From a virus, in the IMG/VR virus record IMGVR_UViG_3300031565_014867, positions 17,783 through 81,782 of that record: DNA of 64,000 nt, one strand, 5' to 3'. The position numbers were made by a program, and so were the translations under genes. Under the pieces are notes generated by a model. It made no database searches. It was not told the DNA's origin and saw only the letters and a list, made by a program, of their open reading frames with translations. Below, in pieces: positions 52-51,618 of the stretch. Position 1 is the first letter of the stretch; every line of letters begins with the position of its first letter.

Positions 52-810
52 CTACGATTGGCTCTCGCGGCTGATGGTCGGCTCGACGGCATTGCACCGG
101 CCGCTGACCGAAACGGTTGCCTCGCCCAGGTCGAACTCCTTGCTGTCAGCGCGGAAGTCGGGGAAGATCGAGATTTCCATGTCGGCACCGCCGCAGGGCG
201 GGATGTGCTCGACTTCGACGTCCACGGCGAAGGGTTCACACGGGTCGGCCGAACTGCTTACCCACTCGGCGGCCCCGCCACGACCCTTGATGGCATCCAT
301 CGGCGTGATGGCCTCGCCCGTGCCGGTGGTGACAAACTCGTAGACGAAGTCGAGGTTCACGTCCATCGGCACCTGATTGCCTTCGCGCACGGTGTCCAAC
401 TGACCGCGATCCAGTTCGTACTCGTACTCCGAATTCTCGGTGTACGTCAGGTTTCCGTCGCCGACCTTCACGTCAATCTGCTGTGGCAGGAACGTAATCA
501 CGGCATCATCGACCGGGATGCCGTCGGCGGTGGCCAGTGCCGGCGTGAACTCGATGTTCGTGGTCGTTGCGCTGCCATCGGCGGGCGTGCGGCCGGTGAC
601 GGTGTAGGTCACGTCGGTCGCGCCGACGACGGTGAATCGGGCTCCGATCGGAACCACGTCGGTCCCCAGCTTGCCGTTGACGACGATGGTGTCGATGTCA
701 AAATCCGTGTCGCCGTCAGCAGGCGGCGTGGTCGATTCGTTGACGGCGGCCGTGCCGCTGAAGCCGTCAAGAATTCTGATTGTAGCGTGTCTCAACTCTA
801 TACGCGCCAT
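52..810 (-). CDS. Putative major tail (tube) protein
   Basis: Acidic, beta-rich 252-aa protein downstream of neck genes; AGGAG RBS before the ATG at 810 (MARIELRH). Confidence 0.65.
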   Translation of the reverse strand: MARIELRHATIRILDGFSGTAAVNESTTPPADGDTDFDIDTIVVNGKLGTDVVPIGARFTVVGATDVTYTVTGRTPADGSATTTNIEFTPALATADGIPVDDAVITFLPQQIDVKVGDGNLTYTENSEYEYELDRGQLDTVREGNQVPMDVNLDFVYEFVTTGTGEAITPMDAIKGRGGAAEWVSSSADPCEPFAVDVEVEHIPPCGGADMEISIFPDFRADSKEFDLGEATVSVSGRCNAVEPTISRESQS

Positions 811-832: not shown

Positions 833-1678
833 CTAGAGGTAACAAGTTCCGTGTGGCCAATTGCCAGACTTAGCGTGTTGCTGAAGACGCCATCTAAGTG
901 TGCTGTAATTCACACCCAAGGCTTCAGCAGCTTCTTTGACACAGCCATACTCGGCTCCATCCACAAGGACACGTTTTGCGCGGTGGGACTTTGTGCCCTT
1001 GCGTGATTCACTCATGCGACGGCGGGCTTGAGGCGAAGCCTTCCGCCCCTTTGAAGCCAAACCGATTTGTCGGCCATGTTCCTTTCGATCAAAAGGCTCA
1101 TAAGTAGCTTTGCCGCTCTCGACAAGTCGCCGCACTGTTTCACGGGACACTCCGAGACCTTCTGCTGCATCCTTCATGCAACCATATCGAACACCGTTCA
1201 GAACGGCGGATTTGGCACACGGATGGTCCGCGCCCCGCCCGTTCATCTCGCGAAGGCGAGTAAGCACTTCCGGGCTGCATTCTCTTCCTTTGCAGGCTTC
1301 ACTGATCTTTCGGCGGGTTTCCTCAGAATGCGGGCCAAGCTCGCTTCCGCTGTGAGCTTCACTCATCCTCCGTTTGGTTCCATCCGACGCTTGCCACCCA
1401 AGCGATCCATCACCACCCAGCGTTAGGTTGTACCCAGATGGTGCGAAGGTGTCTAAAGCGAGGACTGTACGGTACTCCATCATCTTGGCCCATCGATCAT
1501 CTCCCTCGTACCAAGGTTCAAATAGCAGGCTGTTGATTCCGTACTTCTGGATCGCTTGATAAACAAGTTGTGAACCATGCCCTGAGATGTGCTCTCGACA
1601 ACGTCTCTCAAAGTCGACAGTAGCACCGACATACTGCTCACCAGTGATGAGGTTCGTTATGACGTAGACCGTCGTCAT
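833..1678 (-). CDS. Free-standing GIY-YIG homing endonuclease with NUMOD3/HTH-type DNA-binding repeats
   Basis: VYVITNLITGEQYVGAT..R..EH, GYNLTLGG, HSEETRRKISEA, two YGCxKxAAExLGV HTH repeats; lower GC; ATGA overlap with the upstream stop. Confidence 0.88.
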   Translation of the reverse strand: MTTVYVITNLITGEQYVGATVDFERRCREHISGHGSQLVYQAIQKYGINSLLFEPWYEGDDRWAKMMEYRTVLALDTFAPSGYNLTLGGDGSLGWQASDGTKRRMSEAHSGSELGPHSEETRRKISEACKGRECSPEVLTRLREMNGRGADHPCAKSAVLNGVRYGCMKDAAEGLGVSRETVRRLVESGKATYEPFDRKEHGRQIGLASKGRKASPQARRRMSESRKGTKSHRAKRVLVDGAEYGCVKEAAEALGVNYSTLRWRLQQHAKSGNWPHGTCYL

Positions 1679-2175
1679 GTGGTCACCATGAGGTGCATTC
1701 TGTACCGGGCATCGACGGCGCTCTGGCGGAGCCGATCGTCGCGGCTGATCTGTCCGAAGTGAATCACGCGGATCGCATCCCGCTTGCCGGAGCGGAGCGT
1801 GAGGCAACCGAGTAGCGACTGGTCGTCATCCGGCCCTTCTCCCCACTTCCGCACGGGGATCGGCCCGCCGGCCGCTTGAAGCAACACGCCGGCTTGCTGC
1901 ACGATGTCGTAGGCGTTCTTGGTCTGGCCGCCCATCATGCTCGTCAGCAGCAGGTTCACGTCCACGTCGAGCCGAAAATAGCCCCGGCTGAGTTCCGTTA
2001 CGGCCGGGCCGTTGATGCGGAATTCGACGTGATCGTTCGCCCGCATCTTCTCGGCCTCGCGTTCGTCGAGCCCTTCAATCAGGATGGGCAGTTCGATCCC
2101 GTCGGCCGCCTGCTTGAAGTAGTCGGCGGCCGAGGCGAATATCCATCGCGGCCAGTGCGGGTTGGGGATGCTCAT
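1675..2175 (-). CDS. Putative tail terminator/neck protein
   Basis: 166 aa; lies between the head-closure-like gene and the tail gene; assigned from synteny. Confidence 0.5.
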   Translation of the reverse strand: MSIPNPHWPRWIFASAADYFKQAADGIELPILIEGLDEREAEKMRANDHVEFRINGPAVTELSRGYFRLDVDVNLLLTSMMGGQTKNAYDIVQQAGVLLQAAGGPIPVRKWGEGPDDDQSLLGCLTLRSGKRDAIRVIHFGQISRDDRLRQSAVDARYRMHLMVTT

Positions 2176-2675
2176 TGTCGACTGGCTCCCACCGCGAGGC
2201 TCAACAGGCTATCGGCCGTGACCAGGTGGACTTGTTCGGGCGCACGGCCCATCAGTTCCTTGCCGACGACGATCCATGCCGCACCGAACTCGAATTCCCA
2301 GATGGCCTTGATCTCGTAACGACGGCCGTTGTAGACCAGCCAGTCGTCGCTGGTGAACACAAAGCCATCCGGCATATCACGGGCGTCGATGATGAATTTT
2401 CGTAAGCCGCTATCGAAGCTGCCACCATAGACGAACGCCTTGTTGGCCGAAATCTGCGAGATGCTCTGGATCACCTCGCGGCTGACCTTGACGGGCAAGA
2501 CGACCGCCCGCCGGACGACGAACACGTCCTTGTCGATCTGTTTGCGGCCGGTTCGCACGTCGGTCTCGGTGTCATTGAGACGATAGACGCTCACCGTTCC
2601 TCCGTACTGCCGTTTGAGCGAGTACAAGGTTCGCTGGATCATCCGATTGAGCGTGCGGTCGGCCGGGTACATCAA
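2172..2675 (-). CDS. Putative head closure/head-tail joining protein
   Basis: Beta-rich, with DWLVYNGRRYEIKAI typical of head-closure proteins; downstream of the capsid gene. Confidence 0.55.
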   Translation of the reverse strand: MMYPADRTLNRMIQRTLYSLKRQYGGTVSVYRLNDTETDVRTGRKQIDKDVFVVRRAVVLPVKVSREVIQSISQISANKAFVYGGSFDSGLRKFIIDARDMPDGFVFTSDDWLVYNGRRYEIKAIWEFEFGAAWIVVGKELMGRAPEQVHLVTADSLLSLAVGASRQ

Positions 2676-3034: not shown

Positions 3035-4447
3035 TCAGCCCTGGAGCACCACGGCCAGGTCCGGGTCGAGGACCGCGACGCCGGCCAGGATGTCCATGTT
3101 GACGACCGTGCCCTGCTTGATGCTGTTGTATTGCATCGTGATACGCATGGCGATGTCGTTGTACGCTGCCACGGCGGCCATCACGCCCATCGACTGGTTG
3201 GGCAACGCCAGCGGCCGGGTGACCAGGGCCAGGGCGTCACGGTGCAACGCGAGGTTCATCGCGCCAGCCGGGCCGGGGAAGGCTAGGTCGTTGTCGGCCA
3301 GGGCGGTTTCGAGCGGGCGGTCGAGCCAGACGACCCGATCGGAGCCCGATGCCTCCGACTCGATCACCGTGTAGGTGTGGCGGCTGCCACCGGTGCCGAA
3401 GGAGACGAGCTGACCGACCTGGAGCGACTGGGTGAAGCCGTCGACCGTGATGCCCTTGGTGTAGTCGGCCGGGTAGTCGCCCTTGACGCTCTGGGCCTTG
3501 TACACGGTGATGGCTGCGCCGGCCTCGGTGGCGAACTTGTTCGCCTCGTGGAGCGTTACGGCCGTCGTGTCGCCAGCGGCGGTCGTGGCCGCGGTCACGT
3601 AGGTAGGCTGGTCGTTGCCTTCGACCACGGCGTACTCACCCGCCTGCGCCTCATAGCCGGTGATGGCCACTGCCTGCGAGCCGGTCGCACCGATGCTCGC
3701 GGCATTGGTCACGGTTCCGGTCGCCACGTCGGACGTGCCTTCGGCGATGTCGTTGACGTTCTGGTCCATCCAGGTGTCGAAGCCGAGGATGCGGCCCAGC
3801 CGGGCGTTTTCCAGGGCCGTTCCGCCATCGCCCCGCTGATCGGCCGCGATGAACAACTCGTTCTTGAGCAGGGCCGTCTCGCTGGCCGAGCCGAGCACCA
3901 GGTTCCGCGCCGTCACCGGGGCCTTGTTGTCGTTGAGCACCTTGCGGGCTTCGAGCAGGTAGTCCTTCGAGTTGTCCTCGTCGAGGTTCAACAACCGCCC
4001 GACTCGCTTGGCCGGACCGCTGAGAAACCGGTGGACCTGACCGAGCACCGCGCGATCGACGCCGCGAGCGATGACTTGCATGGCCGGCAGCAAGTAGATC
4101 GCGACCAATTCCTGGAACGACTTGCTCGCCTCGCCATCCTTGATGACGAACGAGTTGTAGATGTGCTGATCGAGCGGGACCTGCACGTTGGTCGAACGGG
4201 CGTCCTGGGTCTCGACGTCGTCGTCATCCGTCTTGCGGCGAATCTTGAAGCTGGCCGGCTGCCGGGTGTTGACCACGTCGCCGAACTCACGGACCTCGTC
4301 CTCGAAGTCACGGTGGACCATCGCGGCGGCCACCATGTTCTCTTCGAGGATGGCCAGGCCCTCTTGCGCCCATCGCTCGGGAATGTAGGCGTCGTTGTCG
4401 TTGGCGTAGCAGGTGGGCTCCGCCGAGGAAAGGTAGAGAGGATTCAT
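3035..4447 (-). CDS. Major capsid protein (HK97 fold, P22-coat-like) with a beta-rich insertion
   Basis: YIPERW..., GDVVNTRQP, GRILGFDTWM, LALHRDALALVTRPL, DILAGVAVLDP motifs; follows the scaffold; start at MNPLYLS. Confidence 0.88.
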   Translation of the reverse strand: MNPLYLSSAEPTCYANDNDAYIPERWAQEGLAILEENMVAAAMVHRDFEDEVREFGDVVNTRQPASFKIRRKTDDDDVETQDARSTNVQVPLDQHIYNSFVIKDGEASKSFQELVAIYLLPAMQVIARGVDRAVLGQVHRFLSGPAKRVGRLLNLDEDNSKDYLLEARKVLNDNKAPVTARNLVLGSASETALLKNELFIAADQRGDGGTALENARLGRILGFDTWMDQNVNDIAEGTSDVATGTVTNAASIGATGSQAVAITGYEAQAGEYAVVEGNDQPTYVTAATTAAGDTTAVTLHEANKFATEAGAAITVYKAQSVKGDYPADYTKGITVDGFTQSLQVGQLVSFGTGGSRHTYTVIESEASGSDRVVWLDRPLETALADNDLAFPGPAGAMNLALHRDALALVTRPLALPNQSMGVMAAVAAYNDIAMRITMQYNSIKQGTVVNMDILAGVAVLDPDLAVVLQG

Positions 4448-4524
4448 CGTGAGGAGTTCTCCGTTGTGGGGTGTTGCGGCGAGTGCCGCGAAAGGTGGGA
4501 CAAACGAACCCCTGGAAGAAAAGG

Positions 4525-5385
4525 TCAACGGCCGCGCTTCGGTTTCAATCCGAGAAGCTCAGGGTTCTTCTCGCGGATTTCGCGGTACTGCGTGGGAGAC
4601 AGCTTCCGCACGTCGATCTGGCCGTTCGCTCCCGGTGCAAGGCCACCGGTAGCCGAATTTCCGCCGATGCCACTGACGACACCGGATTTGAAGAGGTTGC
4701 CGTACAGGTCGGGCAATTCCTGCATCCGCTTGACCGCGTTCTCGGGCGTGCGCTGGGTCATCACCGACTCGCCCGTTTCGAGGTCGACGTCGGCGAAGTC
4801 GATCATCGGCTCGAACTCGCCGAGCCCGCGCCCCTTCTCGTCGGTCTTCTCGACCATCTTGGTCATGGGTCGCAATAGCGCGATGACCTGCGACGGGTTA
4901 TACGCCTCGTGCGAGACGGCGGCGTCCTGGAGCGCCCGGGAGATCGTCGACTCCATGTAGCGGCGCTCCCAAACCTCGTACTGCTTCTCGGCCTCCGCCA
5001 GTCGCTCGCTGTATTCCTCTTCGAGCTTCTTGCGATCGTGCGCCGCCTGCTGCTCCTTGGTGCGATACTGGGCGCGGAGGTTTTCGAGCGACTCTTCCAG
5101 CTTGTTGCGTTCGTCCTTGCTGAGGCTCTCGTTTTCCAGGAGTTGCTGGTACGACTGCTCCAGCGATTCGTATTTCTCCTGGTGCTTGCGACGGTCACTC
5201 GCCAGGAACTTGTTAACCTCTTCCTGGGTGAACGTCCGATCGCCGCCTTGATCGCCCTGGTCGCCTTGACCGCCATCGCCTCCCTTTTGGTCGGCATTAT
5301 CGGTTTGGCCACCTTCGCCACCGCCGTCGCCTTCGTTGTCGTAGCAGGTCGCCAGTGGGTCGGAGAGGTACAGGTCGCACAACAT
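4525..5385 (-). CDS. Capsid scaffolding protein
   Basis: G/D-rich N-terminus, TFTQEEVN motif, long coiled coil, PDLYGNLFK, Gly-rich C-terminus; directly upstream of the capsid gene. Confidence 0.85.
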   Translation of the reverse strand: MLCDLYLSDPLATCYDNEGDGGGEGGQTDNADQKGGDGGQGDQGDQGGDRTFTQEEVNKFLASDRRKHQEKYESLEQSYQQLLENESLSKDERNKLEESLENLRAQYRTKEQQAAHDRKKLEEEYSERLAEAEKQYEVWERRYMESTISRALQDAAVSHEAYNPSQVIALLRPMTKMVEKTDEKGRGLGEFEPMIDFADVDLETGESVMTQRTPENAVKRMQELPDLYGNLFKSGVVSGIGGNSATGGLAPGANGQIDVRKLSPTQYREIREKNPELLGLKPKRGR

Positions 5386-5402: not shown

Positions 5403-6857
5403 TCAGGAAACCCTACTCAGTCGAATGGCGTCGTCGTCGCGAAGGAACGGTCGCAGGTATCGCCACGCCAGAGCGTTGGGCACACCGTTGACAATGTGTT
5501 CGATCGGGACATGGGCGCGGGAGTAGGTTGTCCGCACCGACGCATAGCCCTGGGAAACGATTCCCAGGTTCTCCAATTCCAGTTCGGGGTCCTTGCCGTC
5601 GAGCAAGGAATGGGCGATCTCGTAACAGGCGATCCGTATCGCCTCGGGAACCTCCGTGTCGTCACCGCGCGGGAACTCCAGCACTTGCTCGGCCTCGGCC
5701 GCGCGGATCGTCTGATCGCTTGCCCCCGAGCCGAGTGCATGGACCGAGTGTTTTCGGCCCTTGAAGTTCAGCGTGTCGATCACGAGTGTCGCCGCACGCA
5801 ACGCCCTGGGACGATCGATCGGCCTGGCTTGCGACCATGCGTGCTCGTGCAACCGCATGGCGAAGTAGTCCGCCGCTTCCTGGACCGAACCGTAGGTCTC
5901 TTGCGAGATTCCTTTGGGCTTTTGAGGGTCCACGGGCTGCGGAGGGCTCGCCGGACCGATCTTCAACACCTCGGTGGCATCGAATGGAATCCCGTAGATC
6001 ATGCCGCTCGGCGCGAGGACAGCACCTTGCCATTTGTAGGTCCCGGCCAGATTCCCGAAGGTCGACACGGCGTCGATCACCGGATCGATCTTCAGCACCC
6101 CCGTGGCGTTGTAAGGAACTGCGTAAATGCAGCCGTTGGAGGCTACAACGCCGGCGTTCCACTTGTGGGCACCGGGAAGGTCACCGAAGGTCGACGTGGT
6201 GTCGGAGTCCGGATTGATCTTGAGCACCTGGGCAGCGTCTCTCGGAATCCCGTAGATGATCCCGTTCGGCGCCAGGACGCCGAAGGCCCATTTGTTTGTC
6301 TCGGTCCCCAGGCTGCCAAAGGTGGTCGCTGTGTCAGCGGCGGGATCGATCTTCAGAATCGCGGCGTGGTTCTTCGGAATCCCGTAGATACAGCCGTTGG
6401 GCGCCAGAACGCCGTCAAACCACTTGTTTGTCCCGGTAAAGTTCCCGAAAGTGGTCGCCGTGTCGGTGGCAGGATCGATCTTCAGAACTTCGGTGCTGCT
6501 GAACGGAATCCCGTAAATGCAACCGTTCGGTGCCAGAACGCCGCCGAGCCATTTGTTTGTTCCGGGCAGGCTGCCGAATGTGGATATGGTGTCGGTGGCA
6601 GGGTCAATCTTCAGGACCTTGGTGCTGCCGTACGGAATCCCGTAGATACAGCCATTGGGTGCCACAACGCCTGCAGTCCATTTGTGTGTTCCGATCAGTC
6701 CACCAAACAGGGACGCGGTATCGGTGGCCGGATCGATCTTCAACACCTGTGTGGCGTCGTACGGAATCCCGTAGATGCAGTCATTGGAAGCCAGCACGCC
6801 GCCGACCCACTTGTAGGTACCCACGAAGTTCCCGAACGTGGAGAGGGTGTCAGTCAT
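5403..6857 (-). CDS. Seven-bladed beta-propeller fused to a DnaT-like/head-completion domain
   Basis: Seven ~43-aa repeats, Pro-rich linker, then YGSVQEAADYF..W..RALRAATLVID..F.G..Q.LEFPR..VPEAIRIACYEIA..LRPFL. Confidence 0.75.
   Translation of the reverse strand: MTDTLSTFGNFVGTYKWVGGVLASNDCIYGIPYDATQVLKIDPATDTASLFGGLIGTHKWTAGVVAPNGCIYGIPYGSTKVLKIDPATDTISTFGSLPGTNKWLGGVLAPNGCIYGIPFSSTEVLKIDPATDTATTFGNFTGTNKWFDGVLAPNGCIYGIPKNHAAILKIDPAADTATTFGSLGTETNKWAFGVLAPNGIIYGIPRDAAQVLKINPDSDTTSTFGDLPGAHKWNAGVVASNGCIYAVPYNATGVLKIDPVIDAVSTFGNLAGTYKWQGAVLAPSGMIYGIPFDATEVLKIGPASPPQPVDPQKPKGISQETYGSVQEAADYFAMRLHEHAWSQARPIDRPRALRAATLVIDTLNFKGRKHSVHALGSGASDQTIRAAEAEQVLEFPRGDDTEVPEAIRIACYEIAHSLLDGKDPELELENLGIVSQGYASVRTTYSRAHVPIEHIVNGVPNALAWRYLRPFLRDDDAIRLSRVS
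5950..6854 (-). repeat. Seven tandem ~129-bp intragenic repeats encoding propeller blades
   Basis: Unit TFGxxxGTxKWxxGVLAPNGCIYGIPxxxxxVLKIDPATDT; GGAATCCCGTAGAT and GATCGATCTTCA recur in the DNA. Confidence 0.92.
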
Positions 6858-8646
6858 CGACCGGCTCCTTCCCTACACCGCGGGTGCGCTCGGTCGTCGT
6901 GTCGCGGAACGTGGTGTCCCGTGACTGGGCCTTCTCGTCACTGCCGGCACCGGCCGGATCGGTCGAAAGGTCTTTCACACCCCGCGCGGCCGGATCACTG
7001 TCGTCATCGTCGCTGCTCTGCGCCGCAGCGATGCGGAGGATGCGGGCCGTGTGGTCTTCGCGGGCGGTCAGGTGCTCATCGTCGTCGAAGCCGAGGGCGA
7101 CCGACGCCGTCTTCTCGCCGACCAGCCCGGCGTTCTTCGCGTCGATGATGATCTTGGGATCGCTGGTCGTGTAGTGCGAAGCGTCGATTTCGCGGTGGAT
7201 GCGCTCGATCCGTTCGACGCTGACCTTGCCGGCCAACAGCACGGTGACGATGTTCTTGGCGATCTCACGCTTGACCGTTCGGCCCGGCATCTTGTGCATC
7301 AACTTGGCTAGCTTGTCGGCCTCGTCGATCCGCTCCTCGTCCGACTTCAGACTGTAGCGGTCGGGGTACTTGACCGTGGCGACTTGCCTGCGGGCCTGCC
7401 GTCGCTCTTCGTAGGCGGCCCAGAACTCGGCGACCCGCCGCTCGGCGCTTTCGAGCACCAGGCCGATGTACGAGAGGCCCGCTTCGAGCCCCTGGTTGTC
7501 CATCTGCTTCGACTCGGCCGACGCGCGGGTCGCGAGGTTCACCACCGCCAGGTTGACCAGCTTGCGAACGTCCTCCTCCAACTTGCTCTGGAGCTTCAAA
7601 CTGGCTTCGAGCGGCTCCGAGGGTGGTGCGATGAACGCCGGCGCATCGGCCTTGATGTCGTACGCCCGGCCTTGCGTCGAGCCGACCTTGATGTCCGTAT
7701 CGGCCGCGCCCTGACCGCCTTGGGTGGCCGTGCCGTCGGCGCTGGCGGCGACCTTCAAGTGACCGCCGACTGCCCGCAGGTCGCGTTGTTCAATGTAGAA
7801 GGGGAAGTTGGCTTTCAGCGCGTGGTTCACGTCACTGGAACCGAGGTTCAACAAGGCGATCTGGTGTTGGCAAACGTCCTTGATAAGGCTGTCGCCAATG
7901 TCGAGCATCACGAAGGGGATGCGATCCAGTTCGAGCAACACGGGGCCGGCCGGATTGCCGTCGCGGTCGATCGGGTTGCCGTCCGTGTCGTAGAGTTGCA
8001 GGGCTACCTTGCCGGTTTCGGGATCGATCCACAACAGCCGATACCGCTGGAAGGTCTGCGTCGGCAGTCCCGTCCGCTCGTCGAGATCGAGACAAGAATC
8101 CCGCAACAGTAGCGATTGGAACTCGGACGGTTCCTCGGGCTTCGAGCAGGCCCATGACAGAATGTCTTCGACCTGGTAACTGTAGAGGTAGGGCCGGCGT
8201 CCAGTGGCGTCGGCCAGCGTACTGACCCCATCGACAACCGGATGGTCCACGTACACGCCCACGCGGCCCATCACCAGCAGATCGGTCAACACCTTCATGC
8301 CCAGGAAGGAAGTCATCGTCGCGCCCCGGCGATCGACACCGCCTTCCAGCCCGGCCACGGCCTGTTGGTATGCACCGCTGCCACCGGTCCGCAACACGTC
8401 GCTCATGCGTTGATAGATCGAGTTGCGAATGTCGTTCACAGCCGCCTTGGCAAACGCCGGGATCGGCGTGACCGCCTTGCGGCTGTTGAAGTCGCCTTGC
8501 TCTTCCCGTGTACTGAACTGTTCCAGGAACCGATCCCGAAACTCGTCGCCGCCGCGATACGTCAATCGCCACTTCTCCCAGTCCGACATGCAGGACAGGT
8601 AGTTCGGGTGCCGACTGTCGATGATGTTGTGCGAAGACCGTTTCAT
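6850..8646 (-). CDS. Portal protein
   Basis: 598 aa directly after the terminase; HPNY..W N-terminus, GRVGVYVD, LDRIPFV, acidic tail. Confidence 0.85.
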   Translation of the reverse strand: MKRSSHNIIDSRHPNYLSCMSDWEKWRLTYRGGDEFRDRFLEQFSTREEQGDFNSRKAVTPIPAFAKAAVNDIRNSIYQRMSDVLRTGGSGAYQQAVAGLEGGVDRRGATMTSFLGMKVLTDLLVMGRVGVYVDHPVVDGVSTLADATGRRPYLYSYQVEDILSWACSKPEEPSEFQSLLLRDSCLDLDERTGLPTQTFQRYRLLWIDPETGKVALQLYDTDGNPIDRDGNPAGPVLLELDRIPFVMLDIGDSLIKDVCQHQIALLNLGSSDVNHALKANFPFYIEQRDLRAVGGHLKVAASADGTATQGGQGAADTDIKVGSTQGRAYDIKADAPAFIAPPSEPLEASLKLQSKLEEDVRKLVNLAVVNLATRASAESKQMDNQGLEAGLSYIGLVLESAERRVAEFWAAYEERRQARRQVATVKYPDRYSLKSDEERIDEADKLAKLMHKMPGRTVKREIAKNIVTVLLAGKVSVERIERIHREIDASHYTTSDPKIIIDAKNAGLVGEKTASVALGFDDDEHLTAREDHTARILRIAAAQSSDDDDSDPAARGVKDLSTDPAGAGSDEKAQSRDTTFRDTTTERTRGVGKEPVDD

Positions 8647-8656
8647 ATTGGGCTCG

Positions 8657-10360
8657 TCACAGGAACGATTTGATGTCCTGGTTGGTCTCTCGTGCCGCTA
8701 CCAGCGGCAGAGCGATCTCGGCATAGGTTCGGGCGTGGGCGAAGTGGTCAGGGCCGGTCGAAACGAACGTCGCCACCACGTTGCCGCCGCTCTTGGCTTG
8801 CTGATCCTTCTTGGTGTCTTTCTTCTCGCGCTCGTAGGTCCGGACCGGCGCTTTCAAGTGCTCTTGGTATTCATGCGACACGTCGCGCGGCAGGATGATC
8901 CGCCGTGGTTGGCGAAACCGGCCGAGCGACGCACTGAGCCAGTTGGTTCGATCGACCGTGGCAAGCGGTGCTCCGTCTTCGTCGTCGGTGATCGAGATTT
9001 CCTTGGCCGTCACACCTCGCCGATAGCGGCACAGCCACACGTAGCCGGGAAACCGCTTGGCAAACCGTCGCGCTTCCATCGGCCACGGATCGGCGTCGAT
9101 CACGCAGGCGAGAACTTGCCACTCCCGCATCAGTTCGTCGAGCCGCTGGTCCCATTCGTCCTCGTAGAACTTGCCTTCCCACAGGACCTTGGCCGTGGCC
9201 ACCGCATTCAGGTCGTGCGTGTACTGGTCGTAGAACCACTCGCAGACCTCGACGTAGCTCCACTTGCCCTGGTCGACGCCCATCGTGATAATCCGCTCGC
9301 CGCCGATCTCCGGTCGGGCATCGTCTTTGGTGTGGTTGCGAACGCACGCCTGCAAATCCTCGTCGGTGACTTTGGCCCCGTCGCCAATGAACGGAAGGCC
9401 GAGCTTCGAGTTGTGGAATTCCTTATTGGCAAGCTCGTCGCCGAAGCCACGAAAATAGGCCACGACCAATTCGCCGGGCGTGACCGTGAAACTGTACAGT
9501 TGGTTGACATGAAACCCGCGAATGTCCGGGTTTGCGTTCTTCGCCGTCGCGTTCCACGTTCCCGTGCCTAGCCAATCGGGTTTCGTCTCGTGAACGAGCT
9601 TGTTCTTGCATTCCTTGCACTTGAGAAACGATTCGTGACATCGCACGTCCGCAACATGCTCGCCGATGATCTCGATGCAATCGGGCCACACGAACTCGGT
9701 CCACCGAGAACAGCAGGGGCACTTGAAGACGAAGTGCTCCTGCGTGCTTGTCATGTACAGCTTGTGGATGCCGTAGTTCGGGATCGTCGGCGTCGAGATT
9801 CCCCAGACGTGCTTGTGGACCTGGCCCGAAAGCCGCTCCAAGGCAAGCCATATCTGCTTCTGATCCATCTCGTCGATTTCGTCCAGGAACAACTCCGAGA
9901 CGGGAATCGACTTGAGATTGCTGTCGCCACGCGAGCCACGAATGTAGAGGGTGTTGGTCCCGGCCTGTTTCAGGTTGACCGTATTCGTATCCGTGAAAAT
10001 CTCGGCCAGCTTCGGACTCAAGGCCAACGCCGTGGCGAACCGTGCCTTGCTGAAATCGCTCGCATTCAGCGAAGTCGGCAAGACATAGAGGACATCGCGC
10101 CGTAGTCTGTCCAACACGTAGAGCGCCCGGTTGATCGCAACTTCCGTTACGCCTGCCTGCGCCGACTTCATCGCGTAGTTGAACGACGCATTGCTGTCGT
10201 GCATCTCGCGGACCCACGGGTGGTAGGTCCACGAATAGGGGCCAGGGAACGGTTCGCCCATCACGCGACGATTCGCCGCCCAACGCGAACAACTCGTCAA
10301 CGACCGGTCGGTCAGGCCGTCCGCGATGGACCGTTTCAATTCGTCGATCAAGTTGCTCAT
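8657..10360 (-). CDS. terL: Terminase large subunit (lambda gpA-like)
   Basis: MKSAQAGVTE Walker A, LFLDEIDE Walker B, ISTPT, CPCC/CKEC, TMGVDQG nuclease motif, DHFAHA. Confidence 0.93.
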   Translation of the reverse strand: MSNLIDELKRSIADGLTDRSLTSCSRWAANRRVMGEPFPGPYSWTYHPWVREMHDSNASFNYAMKSAQAGVTEVAINRALYVLDRLRRDVLYVLPTSLNASDFSKARFATALALSPKLAEIFTDTNTVNLKQAGTNTLYIRGSRGDSNLKSIPVSELFLDEIDEMDQKQIWLALERLSGQVHKHVWGISTPTIPNYGIHKLYMTSTQEHFVFKCPCCSRWTEFVWPDCIEIIGEHVADVRCHESFLKCKECKNKLVHETKPDWLGTGTWNATAKNANPDIRGFHVNQLYSFTVTPGELVVAYFRGFGDELANKEFHNSKLGLPFIGDGAKVTDEDLQACVRNHTKDDARPEIGGERIITMGVDQGKWSYVEVCEWFYDQYTHDLNAVATAKVLWEGKFYEDEWDQRLDELMREWQVLACVIDADPWPMEARRFAKRFPGYVWLCRYRRGVTAKEISITDDEDGAPLATVDRTNWLSASLGRFRQPRRIILPRDVSHEYQEHLKAPVRTYEREKKDTKKDQQAKSGGNVVATFVSTGPDHFAHARTYAEIALPLVAARETNQDIKSFL

Positions 10361-11147: not shown

Positions 11148-11522
11148 TTAGAACAGGCGAAGGATGAAGCGGAGGATTTTGATGAGCAGAAGGATGCTCT
11201 CAGTCCGCTCCACTTCCTCACCGTCTTTCAGGACGATGTAGGTCGGCAGTCGCCGGACCCGGTACTTCCGCACCAAGTCGGGCCGGGCGTCGTAGTCGAT
11301 CTCGATCACCTCGACGCCTTGTCGCCGCAGGTCGGCCAGTTTGGGTTTGTCCTGCTGGCACGCCTGGCACCAGTCGACCGTGAAGGCCAAGACCTGGTGC
11401 GTGGTCTGTGGCGTGGGGGTCGGACGCGAGCGGTCCGGTGTCTTCAGTGAGGGGGAAGGCGTTTGCACTTCGCACCCACAGAAGAGCACCAGGACCGTCG
11501 CAGTGAGAAGAAACCGACGCAT
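11148..11522 (-). CDS. Thioredoxin-like lipoprotein
   Basis: Signal peptide ending LFCGC; AFTVDWCQACQ active site; YRVRRLPTYIVLKDGEEV. Confidence 0.85.
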   Translation of the reverse strand: MRRFLLTATVLVLFCGCEVQTPSPSLKTPDRSRPTPTPQTTHQVLAFTVDWCQACQQDKPKLADLRRQGVEVIEIDYDARPDLVRKYRVRRLPTYIVLKDGEEVERTESILLLIKILRFILRLF

Positions 11523-12003: not shown

Positions 12004-12675
12004 CTACTTGCTGCCCGAGGGGTAGTAGGTCTCTTTCCACTTGGCGACCAGGCCGGCACCCGCGCCGAGCACGCCCAGGCCAACGAGCGCCCACCAGGGC
12101 GGCAGGCCCGACGTCGGTTCGGGGGCCACGTCGGGCGGTCCCGTATGGTCCAACGGCTGCGGGGCCGGGTCCGGCTGAGGCTGGGGCTCCGGCTGGGGTT
12201 GCGGTTGAGGCTGCGGGCAACACCGGCGTCGGCGGAACAGTTCAGTTCGGATCGCCTGATCCAAGGCGTCGGCCGACATGGGGATATCCTGGCCGCACAC
12301 TTGGTATTGCACTTTCCCATCGGCCGACTGAATCCGGACGCACGGCACTTGTCGCGTGCTCTTCGCATAGCGGTCGCGGAAAATCGCCGTGGTCGTGGCG
12401 ATCGGATGGAAATGTGTCTGGGCCTTCAGGTGTTTCAGGCTCGGGTGCGAATCGAACCAACCCTTGACGGTCTGATACCTCGCATCGCACGGGTTGCCGA
12501 CCACGCTGATGTGCCACTTGCCCTGATCGGCGGGCAGGTCGATCACACGCTCTTCGGCGTGCAGAACGCCGTAGGCCGCATCGGCCTTCAACTCGTCAGC
12601 GGAATCGTCCGCCCAACAAGGGCAGGCTGTGGCGACAATCGCCAACAGCATCAGGGAACACAAAACTCGGATCAT
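12004..12675 (-). CDS. Exported protein with a possible degenerate thioredoxin-like domain, PQ linker and C-terminal TM anchor
   Basis: Signal peptide ending CWA; RYAKSTRQVPCVRIQ; (PQ)n; WWALVGLGVLGAGAGLV. Confidence 0.65.
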   Translation of the reverse strand: MIRVLCSLMLLAIVATACPCWADDSADELKADAAYGVLHAEERVIDLPADQGKWHISVVGNPCDARYQTVKGWFDSHPSLKHLKAQTHFHPIATTTAIFRDRYAKSTRQVPCVRIQSADGKVQYQVCGQDIPMSADALDQAIRTELFRRRRCCPQPQPQPQPEPQPQPDPAPQPLDHTGPPDVAPEPTSGLPPWWALVGLGVLGAGAGLVAKWKETYYPSGSK

Positions 12676-13271
12676 CGGTCCCTCCAATACGGTAAGGGTG
12701 GAGCGGGAGAATACACGGGCGTTGTCGCCCACGAATTGCTGTTGAACCATTCAGCGAGGAACGTCTTGCGCGGAACCCACTTGATCTGGCGGGGATCGTT
12801 GTTGTCGAGGATGCCGGCCCACTGGTCGTCGAAGTGGACCAGACAAACCATGTGCCGGCCGCCGAGAACCGTCACGCCGCAGCCTCGCCGGGTTGAGCAC
12901 GCCCATTCAAGAAAACCCACGTCATCGCCGCCGACCGTGTACGCGAAGCGGACGCCTTCTCGCTCCATCTTGTCGGCCAGACCGGCCGCCCATTCACCGT
13001 TGCCGTAGGTCCGCCGCCAGTAGTCGGCCATCGCGTTGCGGCCCTGCCATCGGAACAGCGAGATCATCGAGGCGTGGACGCACGAGCCCTCACCCTCGTT
13101 GCCTCGCCAGTTGGCCTGACGCAAGGCGACCGGCAGGTTGACGGTCGGGTATTCGATCGGCGTGGTCGGGGCCGGGCGATTGTCTACCGGCTCGTTGTCG
13201 AGACGGAGTTCGATACCGTCGCAACCCGCGACCGCGGCCAAGAGCAATGCGATGACGGACAGTCGCTTCAT
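12672..13271 (-). CDS. Papain-like (C39-like) cysteine peptidase lipoprotein
   Basis: Lipobox AVAGC; EGSCVHAS (Cys), GRHMVCLV (His), ILDNN (Asp/Asn). Confidence 0.72.
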   Translation of the reverse strand: MKRLSVIALLLAAVAGCDGIELRLDNEPVDNRPAPTTPIEYPTVNLPVALRQANWRGNEGEGSCVHASMISLFRWQGRNAMADYWRRTYGNGEWAAGLADKMEREGVRFAYTVGGDDVGFLEWACSTRRGCGVTVLGGRHMVCLVHFDDQWAGILDNNDPRQIKWVPRKTFLAEWFNSNSWATTPVYSPAPPLPYWRDR

Positions 13272-13864
13272 TTGAGCCTCCAGGGTTTCAGCAGGATTCC
13301 TCGTCGCCGCTCCGTCCGAACCAATCGGTTTGGGCTCCAACGGCCAGCGTGGTCGGTGCGGAAAACGCCGACACGGGCGTGCGCCGCTGCGCAATACTCG
13401 GAGCAAAACAAACTCGAAAGGTCTTGCCGGCGGAGTTTCGATTCGAGCCACGACCATCCGATCCCGCCTGCTCGGAAAGCGCCAATCGCGTCATAGTCCT
13501 TGCCGATGTACTCCAGCAGGAACGCACTGAGCCGCTTGCTCTCAAACGGATACAGCGGTCGGTAGAGCGGGTAATGCCACACCTTGCCGCCATACGCTTG
13601 CACACACTCGTCGAGCCGGTGAGCCTGTGTGCCCCAGACCGGCTTTCTTTGAATCGCGCACGACAGTTCTGAGAGCGATGTCGATTCAAACAGCAGCAGT
13701 TCGCCGTCGTGCTCGCCGACGATGCCGACGTGGCTCAAACTCCAGAACGGGATGCCATACGTCGCCAGGTTGATCCCGACGCTCAGCCAGCTATCGCCGC
13801 TGAAACCGATGATCTCACCGGCTTTCGGCGTGGGCCGAGGCTTCTTGGATAGAGAGAGGATCAT
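13268..13864 (-). CDS. Permuted papain-like NlpC/P60 (YiiX/YebB-like) amidase
   Basis: GEIIGF, SHVGIV (His), FES, GKDYD, FCSEYC (Cys) in permuted order. Confidence 0.8.
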   Translation of the reverse strand: MILSLSKKPRPTPKAGEIIGFSGDSWLSVGINLATYGIPFWSLSHVGIVGEHDGELLLFESTSLSELSCAIQRKPVWGTQAHRLDECVQAYGGKVWHYPLYRPLYPFESKRLSAFLLEYIGKDYDAIGAFRAGGIGWSWLESKLRRQDLSSLFCSEYCAAAHARVGVFRTDHAGRWSPNRLVRTERRRGILLKPWRLK

Positions 13865-40351: not shown

Positions 40352-41080
40352 ATGTCCACATCTACCGATCTGGTTCCCGTCGACATGACCCAGTTGCCTT
40401 CCACGCAGGTCGGCAGCGACGAAACCTTCAACGAGTTGGCCAAGAGCGGCGACTTCCTCGGCCGTTTGCAACTCTTCACCAAGGGCAAGGCGATCGACAA
40501 GGGCCTGATCCGGCCCGGCCATTACGGCATCCCCGAGTCGGGTGACGAGATCGTCGATCTGGGCGACACGATCGATGTCGTCCCGCTGGCACGTCGGCCG
40601 AAGGCGATCGACATGAACGACAAGGAAGCCATCATCGTCTGCCACGACCACGAGTCGGACGAGTTCAAGCGGATCGCGGCGCAGTCGCTCGAAAAGGAGT
40701 CGCACTGCATGTACGGCCCCAGCTTCCTCGTCTTCGAGCGGTCCAGCGGCCGGCTGCTGGAGTTCTTCTGTGGCTCGAAGAGCACACGTGGCGAAGCGAA
40801 GAAGATATACCCGTACCTGCCGCTCACCGAGGCCGACATCGCGGCCCGCGAGCTGTCCGGCGCGGAGCCGCACGGCCCGTTGCCGCTCACACTCAAGAGC
40901 CGGTTGGTTGAGAAGGGCACGTATTCGTGGCACGTTCCGGTCGTGGTGAAGTGCTCGACGCCGTTCACGAACCTGCCGTCGATGGCGGCCATCGTGCGGG
41001 AGATCGAGAAGTTCGTCAACGTCAAGGACGACGGCGTGGAGAAGGTCTCCGAGGAACAGGCGAATCGACGCGCCCGCTGA
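40352..41080 (+). CDS. Phage protein, possibly ssDNA-binding
   Basis: Strong GC3 bias; position in the replication operon; function guessed from context. Confidence 0.5.
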   Translation: MSTSTDLVPVDMTQLPSTQVGSDETFNELAKSGDFLGRLQLFTKGKAIDKGLIRPGHYGIPESGDEIVDLGDTIDVVPLARRPKAIDMNDKEAIIVCHDHESDEFKRIAAQSLEKESHCMYGPSFLVFERSSGRLLEFFCGSKSTRGEAKKIYPYLPLTEADIAARELSGAEPHGPLPLTLKSRLVEKGTYSWHVPVVVKCSTPFTNLPSMAAIVREIEKFVNVKDDGVEKVSEEQANRRAR

Positions 41081-49904: not shown

Positions 49905-50306
49905 ATGCGAAAACTAACTATCCCAGGTAGACGAGGGCCGGAATGGCACATCCAACGCGACTTGAAACAGTTCCTTTCAGATCGCGGATGGTTGGTCGAG
50001 CACACGCACGGCAACCTGTACCAACAGGGATTGCCCGACCTGTTCGTGGCGCATCCGCGATACGGACAGCGTTGGATCGACTGCAAACACCCCAAGCGAT
50101 ACTCGTTTACCAAAGCGCAACGAATCAAGTGGCCGCTTTGGGAACAACACGGCGTCGGCATTTGGATCATCACTGCCGCAACGCAGGAACAGTACGACAA
50201 ACTGATGGGGCCGCCGAACTGGCGAGACTATTGGAAACCGTCCTGGGGCGAGATGCCGGACATTGACGCCTTGCTCGACGAACTCGCCGTGAGTGAGATC
50301 GAGTAG
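49905..50306 (+). CDS. VRR-NUC/PD-(D/E)xK nuclease (resolvase-like)
   Basis: EWHIQ, GLPDLF, WIDCK, FTKAQ. Confidence 0.8.
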   Translation: MRKLTIPGRRGPEWHIQRDLKQFLSDRGWLVEHTHGNLYQQGLPDLFVAHPRYGQRWIDCKHPKRYSFTKAQRIKWPLWEQHGVGIWIITAATQEQYDKLMGPPNWRDYWKPSWGEMPDIDALLDELAVSEIE

Positions 50307-50418: not shown

Positions 50419-51618
50419 ATGAAACTCCAAACGAAACCCAACCCCTGGTCGTGCGTCGGATCGGCGTTCGCAATGGTGCTCGACATTTCCGCGGCCGACT
50501 TCTTCGGCCACGTCGGGCACGATGGCAGCGAGATCGCTTTTCCCATGCTGCCCGATCCGATGGCACGTCGGGGGCTTCATATCCAAGAGTGCATCACCGC
50601 TTGTGTGAAACTCGGCAATGCTGTCACGCCGATCGAGTTGTTCCCGGTGATTCAGGCAACGACCCCTGACGAGAACAACGTCCTCGTTCTCTTCGGCGAC
50701 GACGAGTCGGCCAATTGGCATCGCTTGGAGAAGGTCGTTCAAACATCAACCGGTGTGCTCGAAGGCGTCGGCCGCCGATGCCTCCATGCTGTGGCCTACG
50801 ACCACGGCATGATCTTCGATCCGGACGGCGACCACTATCCCTATTCCCGCCCCGCCTGCGAGTCGCGTGGCTTTTGGCCTCGCCGTGCATGGCGCGTAGA
50901 CCGTCTCCACTCTCCACCTCCCAATCCATCTATCCCAGAACTCCTCCGAAAGGACCATACCGTGAGTTCCTATGACTACGATTTGACAAGCAAGATTCCA
51001 AAGGCATTGGACCGCAAACAGAACGAGCGGCTCTACGCCCGCGTCATGGCGGGCGACGGCAAAGCTCGCGAGGAAATGATTGAGGGCAACATGCCGCTGG
51101 TGATTGCCAAGGTGGACGCCTATGTCGGCTGCCATCCGCAGGTCGCCTATCTGCGCGACGACCTGCACAGTGCCGGCTTCCTCGCGTTGGTCAAGGCGGT
51201 CAACACGATGGCCGATCACGACCAACCGAGCAACGTGAATCCCACGGGCTACATCTCAGTCGCCATTACCCACGAGATCACCAGAGTGACAGAGAAGGAG
51301 TCGGCAATGGGCCTGACGAGCATTCCCGAATCAGTGGATGGTCCTGTCAGCAACCACGACGTTCCCGAGGTGGAACACGACATTCCCGATTCAACCACCG
51401 ACGTGAACGAGAGCGCAGTGCAGGGACTATTCGAGTTGCGAGACGTGCTCCAGTCGTGCTGTGAATCCGACAAGGAGCGCACGCTGCTCCGGATGCGCGA
51501 AGAGGGTTACTCGGACCGTGAGATTGCCGAGACGCTCGACCTTCCCCACATCACCACGTTTCGACTCCGCAAGGAACTGGAAGAGCGTTTCAACCAGAAG
51601 TGCCGCGAATTGGAGTAG
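50419..51618 (+). CDS. Single frame: C39-like peptidase domain followed by a sigma70-family sigma factor (internal GTG start at 50962)
   Basis: Q..WSCVG/HAVAY/FDP; GDGKAREEMIEGNMPLV, DDLHSAGFLALVKA, GYSDREIAETL; AAGGA before the GTG at 50962; no stop between the domains. Confidence 0.8.
   Translation: MKLQTKPNPWSCVGSAFAMVLDISAADFFGHVGHDGSEIAFPMLPDPMARRGLHIQECITACVKLGNAVTPIELFPVIQATTPDENNVLVLFGDDESANWHRLEKVVQTSTGVLEGVGRRCLHAVAYDHGMIFDPDGDHYPYSRPACESRGFWPRRAWRVDRLHSPPPNPSIPELLRKDHTVSSYDYDLTSKIPKALDRKQNERLYARVMAGDGKAREEMIEGNMPLVIAKVDAYVGCHPQVAYLRDDLHSAGFLALVKAVNTMADHDQPSNVNPTGYISVAITHEITRVTEKESAMGLTSIPESVDGPVSNHDVPEVEHDIPDSTTDVNESAVQGLFELRDVLQSCCESDKERTLLRMREEGYSDREIAETLDLPHITTFRLRKELEERFNQKCRELE

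What the first reader, a model, noticed from the sequence alone, without database searches (positions are those of the whole stretch)
3035..5385. Capsid and scaffold share an N-terminal leader LYLSxxxxTCYxN: candidate new maturation signal
Seen: the capsid starts MNP-LYLS-SAEP-TCY-ANDNDAYIPERW and the scaffold starts MLCD-LYLS-DPLA-TCY-DNEGDGGG, with identical spacing in two otherwise unrelated proteins. After TCY the capsid reads like a usual mature start (AN...IPE.W). Known: staphylococcal phage 80alpha capsid and scaffold share an LNLQ(F/H)F/A leader cut by the host cysteine protease Prp. Inference: an analogous system with a different motif, cut after TCY by a host protease or one of the three phage papain-like domains (12672, 13268, 50419). 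No HK97-type prohead protease is visible in the window.
Basis: partly seen in the sequence, partly recalled or inferred. Interest (0 to 1): 0.8.

Follow-up and report, generated by a model that had tools for sequence, protein, structure and literature searches.

The report
Shared removable-looking leader on phage virion proteins
The coat and scaffold proteins of this Planctomycetes prophage start with the same short tag, which in hundreds of related uncultured phages changes in step between a phage's own virion proteins and travels with a small phage-encoded protease-like gene, so it looks like a new kind of cut-off assembly leader that nobody has tested.

Summary
Observation confirmed and much widened. 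The capsid (3035-4447, minus) starts MNPLYLSSAEPTCY|ANDND and the scaffold (4525-5385, minus) MLCDLYLSDPLATCY|DNEGD. In 28 of 28 related loci that hold both gene starts, both proteins carry the leader. Across a family of over 2000 capsid representatives the leader differs from lineage to lineage but matches within each phage. It is kept at the peptide level, not the DNA level. In some lineages the tail-tube protein and the portal carry it too. Leaderless homologues of capsid and tail tube begin M-A..., exactly at the predicted cut. A head-internal protease cannot explain a leader on a tail protein. No Prp, extended L27, HK97-type, ClpP or S49 protease was found in host or phage. It is present in 15 of 15 leader-bearing phage records that cover its neighbourhood and missing at the syntenic spot of the one leaderless record. 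Cleavage itself is not shown, and the domain matches no protease family by Pfam or PDB sequence search. This scan found the same leader before on other DNA (e1-6098456, e1-5798644, e1-6062077, e1-6028507). Verdict: new variant of the 80alpha/Prp kind.

The parts
3035..4447 (-). Major capsid protein, 470 aa, P22-coat-like
   Evidence: Pfam PF11651 at E 3.6e-23. phrog_283 at E 1.6e-54, with protein residue 15 aligned to profile position 2. AF2 model has mean pLDDT 80; residues 1-35 are below 50.
4406..4447 (-). Capsid leader, codons 1-14 (MNPLYLSSAEPTCY); predicted cut between Y14 and A15
   Evidence: Sequence. Alignment to leaderless capsids starts at A15 = subject A2. 11 of 136 family representatives begin at this point.
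4525..5385 (-). Scaffolding protein, 286 aa: leader, acidic/Gly linker, coiled coil, basic C-terminus
   Evidence: phrog_206 at E 2.9e-6. PF06810 at E 1.6e-4, below its cut-off. Alignment A3 of 23 scaffolds.
5341..5385 (-). Scaffold leader, codons 1-15 (MLCDLYLSDPLATCY); predicted cut between Y15 and D16
52..810 (-). Tail tube protein, leaderless here (MARIELRHATIRILDG). Its homologues in other lineages carry that lineage's leader.
   Evidence: AF2 model pLDDT 78. Foldseek PDB top hits are phage T1 tail tube 9l0f_G at E 3e-5, then FCWL1 and phiXa. Leader-bearing homologues are shown.
5403..6857 (-). DUF6923 repeats fused to an Ad1-type head-tail adaptor domain (last ~175 aa). Context gene in the usual protease slot; not leader-specific.
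   Evidence: PF21959, PF20557 and phrog_477. The adaptor domain lies upstream of the scaffold in 83 of 136 loci, including leaderless L116 and L210.
6850..8646 (-). Portal protein, leaderless here. The portal of the L135/L140 lineage starts MKTWIPIF|ARAK.
   Evidence: phrog_145 at E 8.6e-33. 43-44% identity to the leader-bearing portals.
8657..10360 (-). Terminase large subunit (context)
   Evidence: PF05876, PF20454 and phrog_675.
50419..50913 (+). Candidate leader peptidase: N-terminal ~165 aa of ORF 50419-51618, with invariant Cys12, His123 and [DN]-Pro135 and no signal peptide
   Evidence: Alignment A5 of 8 homologues. Present in 15 of 15 leader-bearing records that hold the neighbour gene, and absent from the leaderless record that holds it. 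No Pfam or PDB sequence match. The ESM Atlas lead to Peptidase_C39 is weak: 13% of one cluster.
50914..51618 (+). C-terminal part of the same ORF, with a helix-turn-helix. I read it as sigma-factor-like; that reading is recalled, not tested.
   Evidence: Weak HTH_23 and GerE matches. A separate ORF in G002, G015, G016, G025 and G010.
13268..13864 (-). Considered and set aside: C92-like (permuted papain-like) ORF
   Evidence: No Pfam match. ESM Atlas cluster has PF05708 in 23% of members. Found in G002, G003, G006 and G015 (the query is G000's own ORF) and not in any of the other 15 records searched, which include complete G016 and G025 and terminal-repeat G021.
12672..13271 (-).
   Evidence: Starts MKRLSVIALLLAAVAGC. 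Only a faint LPAM_1 match. Homologues occur only in close relatives.

Best explanation
The 14- and 15-residue N-termini of capsid and scaffold are two copies of a phage-private leader. A large family of uncultured siphophages places this leader in front of the normal start of its main virion proteins: always capsid and scaffold, and in some lineages also the tail tube and portal.

Most likely the leader is a propeptide cut after its last residue. That residue is aromatic in 166 of 219 capsids; here the cuts would be Y14|A15 and Y15|D16. The cut would happen in the cytoplasm before assembly. The enzyme would be a phage-encoded papain-type cysteine peptidase, the N-terminal domain at 50419-50913.

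Shown: the leader, its co-variation, its exact boundary, its all-or-none pattern, and its co-occurrence with that gene. Inferred: the cut itself, the fold and activity of the domain, and what the leader does before removal (holding subunits assembly-incompetent, or guiding folding).
For: 1. Co-conservation. Both starts carry the leader in all 28 of the 32 close loci that hold both gene starts.

2. Co-variation. I read 76 loci with a leader-bearing capsid and an upstream scaffold, giving 45 distinct capsid P6-P1 hexamers. The phage's own scaffold scores higher than every unrelated scaffold in 24 of the 45. Mean BLOSUM score is 20.7 for own pairs against 8.0 for cross pairs. Examples: IWNPVF/IWNPVF, PFRLVY/PFRLVY, PVVSLY/PVVSLY, ARFVGY/ARFVGF.

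3. Peptide-level selection. At identical leader residues the codon is the same in 75 of 168 cases, against 84.7 expected from codon usage.

4. Exact boundary in three protein families.
- Leaderless capsids begin M-A-N-[DNS] (11 of 136 representatives), and cultured Nanhaivirus capsids align A2 to query A15.
- Tail-tube homologues begin either M-A-x-I-[DE]-L or leader|A-x-I-D-L.
- The portal of L135/L140 starts MKTWIPIF|ARAK.

5. Site conservation. In 219 capsids, P1 is F in 89 and Y in 77; P1' is A in 116, D in 56 and E in 10.

6. All-or-none. The two leaderless capsid loci that also hold a scaffold (L116, L210) have leaderless scaffolds, and L210 also has a leaderless tail tube.

7. A tail protein carries the leader (fold match to tail tubes).

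8. The candidate enzyme has an invariant Cys...His...[DN]P.
- It is part of the gene set shared with all four complete or terminal-repeat genomes.
- It is found in 15 of 36 related records. Those are exactly the 15 that also hold the neighbouring gene p133, and include 3 of 3 records at least 90% complete.
- Leaderless G026 keeps polA, p133 and the 154-aa gene that precedes the peptidase elsewhere, but has no peptidase.
- 0 of 5 cultured leaderless distant relatives have it.
Against: - No protein data: cleavage is inferred only.
- The candidate domain matches no Pfam family at E up to 10 and no PDB sequence profile.
- The leaderless contrast within the family rests on one record, G026, which is 41% complete. 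The five cultured leaderless phages are distant and lack many other genes too.
- The gene lies in the replication region next to a sigma-like gene, so it may have another substrate.
- G004 and G005 carry leaders, but their contigs lack the whole neighbourhood, so they say nothing either way.
- Classic C39 peptidases cut after Gly-Gly, not after Tyr or Phe. Only 12 of 219 capsids have G at P1.
- In 80alpha the scaffold leader is needed for assembly while its cleavage is dispensable (PMC5744158, passages). A leader can therefore matter without being cut.
Confidence: 0.4

Rival explanations
1. The leader is a cleaved propeptide, but the enzyme is a host housekeeping protease with loose specificity (hydrophobic stretch, aromatic P1, small or acidic P1'). 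This is the 80alpha logic without Prp.
For: - 80alpha sets the precedent for a host enzyme cutting capsid, scaffold and, in relatives, a tail protein (passages of PMC5744158).
- No known prohead protease was found in 11 phage records.
- The boundary and P1/P1' evidence fits any endopeptidase.
Against: - No Prp, and L27 is unextended in a host MAG.
- No host ORF with the leader in four Planctomycetaceae MAGs. Non-phage hits were at control level, and the 4 in-frame ones and 1 heptapeptide hit were not credible gene starts.
- Fast, lineage-specific co-variation of the leader is hard to reconcile with a conserved host enzyme that has host substrates.
- MAGs are incomplete and my patterns were strict, so this test is weak.
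Confidence: 0.2
2. The leader is not removed. It is a sticky N-terminal tag that a common partner binds (a chaperone, or the leaders bind each other) to coordinate folding or co-assembly of the abundant virion proteins.
For: - In 80alpha the scaffold leader is essential while cleavage is not, and the authors raise a common-chaperone idea (PMC5744158).
- Homotypic pairing would favour matching sequences.
- The leader is hydrophobic and, in the scaffold, sits on a long flexible acidic linker.
Against: - The leader stops exactly where leaderless homologues start in three unrelated protein families.
- Its length varies from 2 to 37 residues.
- Leaderless rows are scattered: 11 state changes for 11 leaderless rows on a FastTree of 136 capsids. 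That fits a dispensable, removable module better than a structural element.
- The AF2 capsid model gives the first 35 residues no confident place.
Confidence: 0.25
3. The leader is cut by another phage enzyme of this window: the C92-like ORF at 13268-13864 or the lipoprotein ORF at 12672-13271.
For: - Both lie in the late operon between the small and large terminase genes.
- The C92 lead comes from the ESM Atlas: PF05708 in 23% of one cluster.
- The C92-like ORF is present in G000 (the query's own ORF) and in G002, G003, G006 and G015.
Against: - The C92-like ORF is absent from complete G016 and G025 and from terminal-repeat G021, all leader-bearing.
- Local profile searches found both ORFs only in close relatives.
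- The 12672 ORF starts with a lipoprotein-type signal, so it should act outside the cytoplasm.
- Neither has a Pfam peptidase match.
Confidence: 0.05
4. The similarity is a DNA- or RNA-level element (shared translation signal or recent gene conversion), or chance.
For: The two leader-coding stretches lie about 940 bases apart in the same orientation, so recombination is conceivable.
Against: - Synonymous sites differ.
- Codon identity is not above expectation: 75 of 168 against 84.7 expected.
- The pattern repeats in dozens of diverged lineages and on other proteins.
Confidence: 0.02

Closest known systems
Prp-dependent processing of capsid and scaffold of Staphylococcus phage 80alpha (host cysteine protease Prp, MEROPS C108; leaders ME-ENKLKFNLQFF'ADQS and MEQTQKLKLNLQHF'ASNN, as printed in PMC9405229)
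   Same: - A 13-14-residue N-terminal leader shared by two unrelated head proteins.
- It ends in an aromatic residue and is followed by Ala.
- The same motif sits on a major tail protein in a related phage (phi13).
- There is no prohead protease gene.
- Processing is possible outside the prohead (passages in PMC5744158 and PMC9405229).
   Different: - No Prp in the host MAG or in the phage records, and no L27 extension.
- The motif is not fixed. It differs from lineage to lineage and co-varies within each phage.
- The host is Planctomycetota, a name that does not occur in the main text of PMC9405229, which lists the Prp-bearing phyla (0 occurrences).
- The candidate enzyme is phage-encoded and unrelated in sequence to Prp.
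Peptidase C39 leader peptidases of bacteriocin exporters (double-glycine leaders). This description is recalled knowledge, not from a call.
   Same: - Enzymes whose job is to remove a short N-terminal leader.
- Catalytic order Cys...His...Asp/Asn, as in alignment A5.
- ESM Atlas lead to PF03412.
   Different: - No Pfam or PDB sequence match.
- The site here ends in Tyr or Phe, not Gly-Gly.
- The domain is soluble, not fused to an ABC transporter.
- The substrates are virion proteins.
Prohead proteases of HK97 (S78), lambda (S49) and ClpP type, and T4 gp21. Their general description is recalled knowledge.
   Same: Removal of N-terminal parts of capsid and scaffold during head maturation.
   Different: - None of S78, ClpP or S49 was found in 11 records.
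- The slot between portal and scaffold holds an adaptor-like gene.
- A tail tube protein carries the leader, and a head-internal enzyme could not reach it.
Leaderless relatives with the same capsid type: Dinoroseobacter phage vB_DshS_R26L and Pseudanabaena phage Pan1 (Nanhaivirus)
   Same: P22-coat-like capsid at 28% identity over about 310 residues, with a scaffold gene just upstream.
   Different: - Capsids start MANTLGNYNPEF and scaffolds MPFFDQEGNE / MPEDNIPGG, with no leader.
- No peptidase-like domain.

Membership tests
80alpha/Prp-type leader processing | Prp protease (PF04327) encoded by host or phage | tested here: not met
   No match in the own record, in host MAG G001 or in 5 further phage records. 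The control genomes did give matches.
80alpha/Prp-type leader processing | Host ribosomal protein L27 carries the same N-terminal extension | tested here: not met
   L27 of G001 starts MAHKKGQGSS directly after its Met.
80alpha/Prp-type leader processing | Capsid and scaffold share a short N-terminal leader that ends in an aromatic residue before the mature start | tested here: met
80alpha/Prp-type leader processing | The leader is removed from the proteins found in particles | not testable with these tools
   Needs N-terminal mass spectrometry or Edman sequencing.
Prohead-protease maturation (S78 HK97-type, S14 ClpP-type, S49 lambda-type) | A protease gene of one of these families in the phage, usually between portal and capsid | tested here: not met
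   0 of 11 records for each of PF04586, PF00574 and PF01343. The head-module genes give no protease family.
P22 coat protein family (PF11651), for the capsid | Profile match above Pfam's cut-off | tested here: met
   82.5 bits against a cut-off of 24, E 3.6e-23.
Peptidase C39 / papain-fold cysteine peptidase, for 50419-50913 | Profile match to PF03412 or a related family | tested here: not met
   No peptidase family at E up to 10 for the whole ORF, nor at E up to 1 for any of 8 homologues. No PDB sequence hit of note.
Peptidase C39 / papain-fold cysteine peptidase, for 50419-50913 | Conserved catalytic Cys, then His, then Asp/Asn, in that order | tested here: met
   C12, H123 and P135 are invariant, with D or N before P135, in 8 of 8 sequences at 25-50% identity. 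This is compatible with the family but not proof.
Peptidase C39 / papain-fold cysteine peptidase, for 50419-50913 | Papain-like fold | not tested
The ESM Atlas holds no model.
Peptidase C39 / papain-fold cysteine peptidase, for 50419-50913 | Substrate leader ends in Gly-Gly (Gly-Ala or Gly-Ser) | tested here: not met
   P1 is F or Y in 166 of 219 capsids and G in 12.
Siphophage tail tube protein, for 52-810 | Tail-tube fold, and a gene position before the tape-measure gene | tested here: met
   Foldseek top hits are tail tubes of T1, FCWL1 and phiXa at E 3e-5 to 1e-3, with modest TM scores of 0.29-0.41. A 1291-aa ORF follows two small genes downstream.

The most novel reading that the evidence does not exclude
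A self-contained maturation system of a new type. A small phage-encoded papain-type peptidase recognises a private, fast-evolving N-terminal leader that the phage places on its capsid, scaffold and, in some lineages, its tail tube and portal. It cuts them in the cytoplasm, outside the prohead. Enzyme and leaders co-evolve as a lock and key and are lost together.
Probability: 0.35. Interest if true: 0.85.

Novelty: new variant of a known kind. Interest (0 to 1): 0.72.

Why it matters
Head maturation by proteolysis is a textbook step of phage assembly. The known routes are a protease packed inside the prohead and, in one case, the host enzyme Prp.

Here a very large, uncultured phage family (2375 capsid representatives at E up to 0.001) shows a third pattern. 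The leader is shared by head and tail proteins and is specific to each lineage. A conserved but unclassified Cys-His gene travels with it.

If the cut and the enzyme are confirmed, three things follow:
- a new protease family with a short, portable and apparently orthogonal recognition tag;
- an explanation of how these phages keep abundant structural proteins in check before assembly;
- a sequence rule for correcting the mature N-termini of thousands of metagenomic capsid, scaffold and tail-tube annotations.

It is directly testable by co-expression in E. coli.

Tried and rejected
- Complex prediction, capsid (alignment A1) with scaffold residues 1-60 (A3): no verdict, score 0.00, controls not run. 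It says nothing either way.
- The AF2 capsid model leaves residues 1-35 below pLDDT 50, so it cannot place the leader.
- The adaptor-like 175-aa gene in the protease slot was considered as the enzyme and rejected. It matches phrog_477 and DnaT_2 and is also present in the leaderless L116 and L210.
- The giant ORFs (2502 and 1866 aa) and small ORFs between portal and adaptor in G004 and G005 have no Pfam family.
- The conserved 242-aa ORF at 40352-41080 has no Pfam or PHROG match, and nothing in its sequence looked like a protease to me.
- The C92-like and lipoprotein ORFs are not general.
- Host scans for leader-bearing host proteins found nothing credible. The MAGs are incomplete and the patterns strict.
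- Literature: four searches turned up only the staphylococcal Prp case. None of the 10 listed papers holds the term 'peptidase C39'. Apart from passages of PMC5744158 and PMC9405229, I saw only the search listings. Supplements are closed and were not consulted.
- The tree is a FastTree. Rows dropped: proteins outside 430-500 aa or without the HRDF-like anchor, and P0249 (truncated start). Only L116 and L210 could be checked on DNA for true leaderless starts.
- Rows dropped before the count: L030 and L031 (capsid 5' end joined to a terminase-like ORF, no scaffold), L116 (leaderless), and duplicates of the same hexamer (76 loci reduced to 45).
Full report
**What is there.** The window belongs to an 81,782-base IMG/VR provirus record, estimated 79% complete. 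On the minus strand lies a head module: large terminase 8657-10360, portal 6850-8646, a DUF6923-repeat protein ending in an Ad1-type adaptor domain 5403-6857, scaffold 4525-5385, and a P22-coat-like capsid 3035-4447. Each start has a Shine-Dalgarno-like site. The proteins begin MNPLYLSSAEPTCY-ANDNDAYIPERW (capsid) and MLCDLYLSDPLATCY-DNEGDGGG (scaffold). A strict leader pattern occurs nowhere else in the six frames of the record, apart from one stretch broken by stops.

**Host.** Contigs with 93-95% identical capsids lie in Planctomycetaceae MAGs. A 36%-identical prophage sits in a 1-Mb contig of another such MAG, G001.

**Co-conservation.**
- Of 32 viral contigs with capsids 53-97% identical, 28 hold both gene starts, and in all 28 both proteins carry the leader.
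- The two leaders change together: TCY/TCY here, ACF/SCF, ACY/SCF, ALY/GLY, and PVVSLY/PVVSLY in a lineage with a leader one residue shorter.
- The best 120 of 1606 database capsids nearly all start MNxLY[LVI]S...C[YF][AD]NDND.

**The wider family.**
- An exhaustive profile-free search found 2375 capsid representatives at E up to 0.001. Most of the best 148 carry a hydrophobic leader of varied sequence.
- In 219 capsids with the standard spacing, the last leader residue (P1) is F or Y in 166, and the next residue is A, D or E in 182. Median leader length is 14, with a range of 2-37.
- I fetched about 110 more loci around distant capsids.
- In 76 loci with a leader-bearing capsid and an upstream scaffold there are 45 distinct capsid P6-P1 hexamers. 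The phage's own scaffold N-terminus matches better than every unrelated scaffold in 24 of the 45. Mean BLOSUM score is 20.7 for own pairs against 8.0 for cross pairs.
- Some lineages keep only the general features (for example L089, L091, L099, L120); I count these among the 21 of 45 that do not stand out.
- The match is kept at the protein level. At identical leader residues the codon is the same in 75 of 168 cases, against 84.7 expected (examples).

**The boundary.**
- Two cultured distant relatives (Dinoroseobacter phage R26L and Pseudanabaena phage Pan1) have capsids starting MANTLGNYNPEF. blastp starts the alignment at query A15 = subject A2, and their scaffolds have no leader.
- Three cultured actinophage capsids also start M/V-A-N-T-F or M-A-H.
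- Eleven of 136 family representatives begin M-A/S/P/G-N..., at the same point. On a FastTree of the capsid bodies they need 11 state changes, so they are scattered.
- The two leaderless capsids that I could check on DNA (L116, L210) have a stop codon just upstream. Both have leaderless scaffolds, and L210 also has a leaderless tail tube.

**More proteins carry the leader.**
- Homologues of window ORF 52-810, which here starts MARIELRHATIRILDG, carry their own lineage's leader in at least 14 distinct N-terminal contexts among the rows printed, and in 3 of 5. Examples: MHNFVRIWTPVF|ATIDLK beside capsid ...KIWTPVF|DGND, and VEFLRSEPRLVAY|APIDLK beside capsid ...ARFVGY|DNS.
- The leaderless versions start M|A-x-I-[DE]-L, again exactly at the boundary.
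- An AF2 model of this protein (pLDDT 78) matches siphophage tail tubes: T1 9l0f_G at E 3e-5, then FCWL1 and phiXa, with modest TM scores of 0.29-0.41. The gene lies before two small genes and a 1291-aa ORF.
- In one lineage the portal (MKTWIPIF|ARAK, 43-44% identical to the window's portal) and a 273-aa ORF also carry the leader.
- A leader on a tail protein means that whatever reads it works outside the prohead. The 80alpha group shows the same thing: a Prp motif sits on the major tail protein of phi13 (PMC5744158, passage).

**Which enzyme? Negative results.**
- Prp: none in the own record, in host MAG G001, or in 5 further phage records.
- L27 of G001 starts MAHKKGQG, with no extension.
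- S78, ClpP and S49 proteases: 0 of 11 phage records each.
- Host proteins with the leader: a start-anchored pattern in four MAGs gave non-phage hits at control level, and the 4 in-frame ones are not credible gene starts. A heptapeptide pattern in G001 gave the phage capsid and scaffold plus one hit in a frame without a start codon. T-C-Y-[AD]-N-[DE] in three MAGs gave 6 of 6 phage hits.
- The adaptor-like gene in the protease slot is also present in leaderless phages.

**Which enzyme? The positive lead.**
- I compared the own record with three complete genomes (G015, G016, G025) and one with terminal repeats (G021). The shared gene set, besides structural and replication genes, includes the first ~160 residues of ORF 50419-51618.
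- Eight homologues at 25-50% identity keep an invariant Cys12, His123 and [DN]-Pro135 and have no signal peptide.
- A profile of them hits 15 of 36 related IMG/VR records, including 3 of 3 that are at least 90% complete. In one of the 36, G031, the capsid 5' end is interrupted and its leader could not be read.
- The neighbouring gene p133 (49905-50306) hits exactly the same 15 records, plus the leaderless G026.
- So every leader-bearing record that covers the neighbourhood has the domain. G026 keeps polA, p133 and the 154-aa gene that precedes the domain elsewhere, but lacks the domain.
- None of the five cultured leaderless phages has it.
- Caveats: the within-family contrast is n = 1. The domain has no Pfam or PDB sequence match. 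The only family hint is an ESM Atlas cluster in which 13% of members carry Peptidase_C39. The gene lies next to, and here is fused to, a helix-turn-helix part that I read as sigma-like, so it may have another role.

The C92-like ORF at 13268 and the lipoprotein ORF at 12672 occur only in close relatives and are missing from complete leader-bearing genomes.

**Reading.**
- That the leader is a real, selected, shared signal I hold at about 0.9.
- That it is cut off I hold at about 0.65. This rests on the exact boundary in three protein families, the conserved P1/P1' pair, the variable length, and the all-or-none and scattered loss.
- That the 50419 domain is the enzyme I hold at about 0.4.
- An uncleaved chaperone or zipper tag remains possible. 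80alpha shows that a scaffold leader can be essential while its cleavage is not.

**Comparison and novelty.** In form this is the 80alpha/Prp scheme. It fails the two membership tests that define that scheme (Prp and extended L27). It also differs in having private, co-varying leaders and a phage-borne candidate enzyme. I file it as a new variant of a known kind. My searches of the held library found only the staphylococcal case.

**Earlier notes of this scan.** Notes on other genomes describe the same leader (e1-6098456, e1-5798644, e1-6062077, e1-6028507), and one links a C39-like protease to such leaders in a Deinococcus prophage (e1-5930419). I re-derived the leader claims on my own data. 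The C39 note made me look again at the peptidase-like ORFs.

Noticed in passing
window 833-1807 (-): A GIY-YIG/NUMOD3/I-TevI-type homing endonuclease gene sits between the head-tail connector genes and the tail tube gene (Pfam). Close relative L004 has only a short remnant match there.
   Followed up: partly
window 5403-6857 (-): The Ad1-type adaptor domain is fused here to about 310 residues of DUF6923 repeats. In most relatives the adaptor is a stand-alone protein of about 174 aa, and the repeat part lies elsewhere or is absent.
   Followed up: partly
L086 3764-11272; L087 3381-8981: Relatives G004 and G005 carry a giant ORF (2502 and 1866 aa), with no Pfam family, between portal and adaptor. 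The connector gene homologous to window 2172-2675 is part of another giant ORF there.
   Followed up: no
window 50419-51618 (+): Here the peptidase-like domain and the helix-turn-helix (sigma-like) part form one ORF. In G002 and G015 they are two overlapping ORFs in different frames, and in G016, G025 and G010 they are separate genes. G016 has two copies of the peptidase-like gene.
   Followed up: partly
L030 and L031 (IMG/VR contigs): The capsid gene lacks its first residues and is joined in frame to a terminase-like ORF, with portal, adaptor and scaffold missing. This is a deletion or an assembly artefact.
   Followed up: no
window 40352-41080 (+): A 242-aa protein with very high GC3 (0.88) and no Pfam or PHROG family is conserved in every related genome that covers the replication region.
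   Followed up: partly
L105, L130, L122, L144, L129, L010 and others: Many relatives have two tail-tube paralogues in tandem, the second often longer. The window has one.
   Followed up: no
window 11148-11522 (-): A thioredoxin-fold lipoprotein (WCQAC; PF00085 at E 1e-10) lies in the late operon between the terminase genes, beside exported and membrane ORFs. No classical endolysin was seen in the ORFs I scanned.
   Followed up: no
L090 and L098: The capsid 5' end is interrupted just upstream of the conserved LEENMV region, and the upstream ORF looks like an inserted mobile-element gene rather than a scaffold.
   Followed up: no
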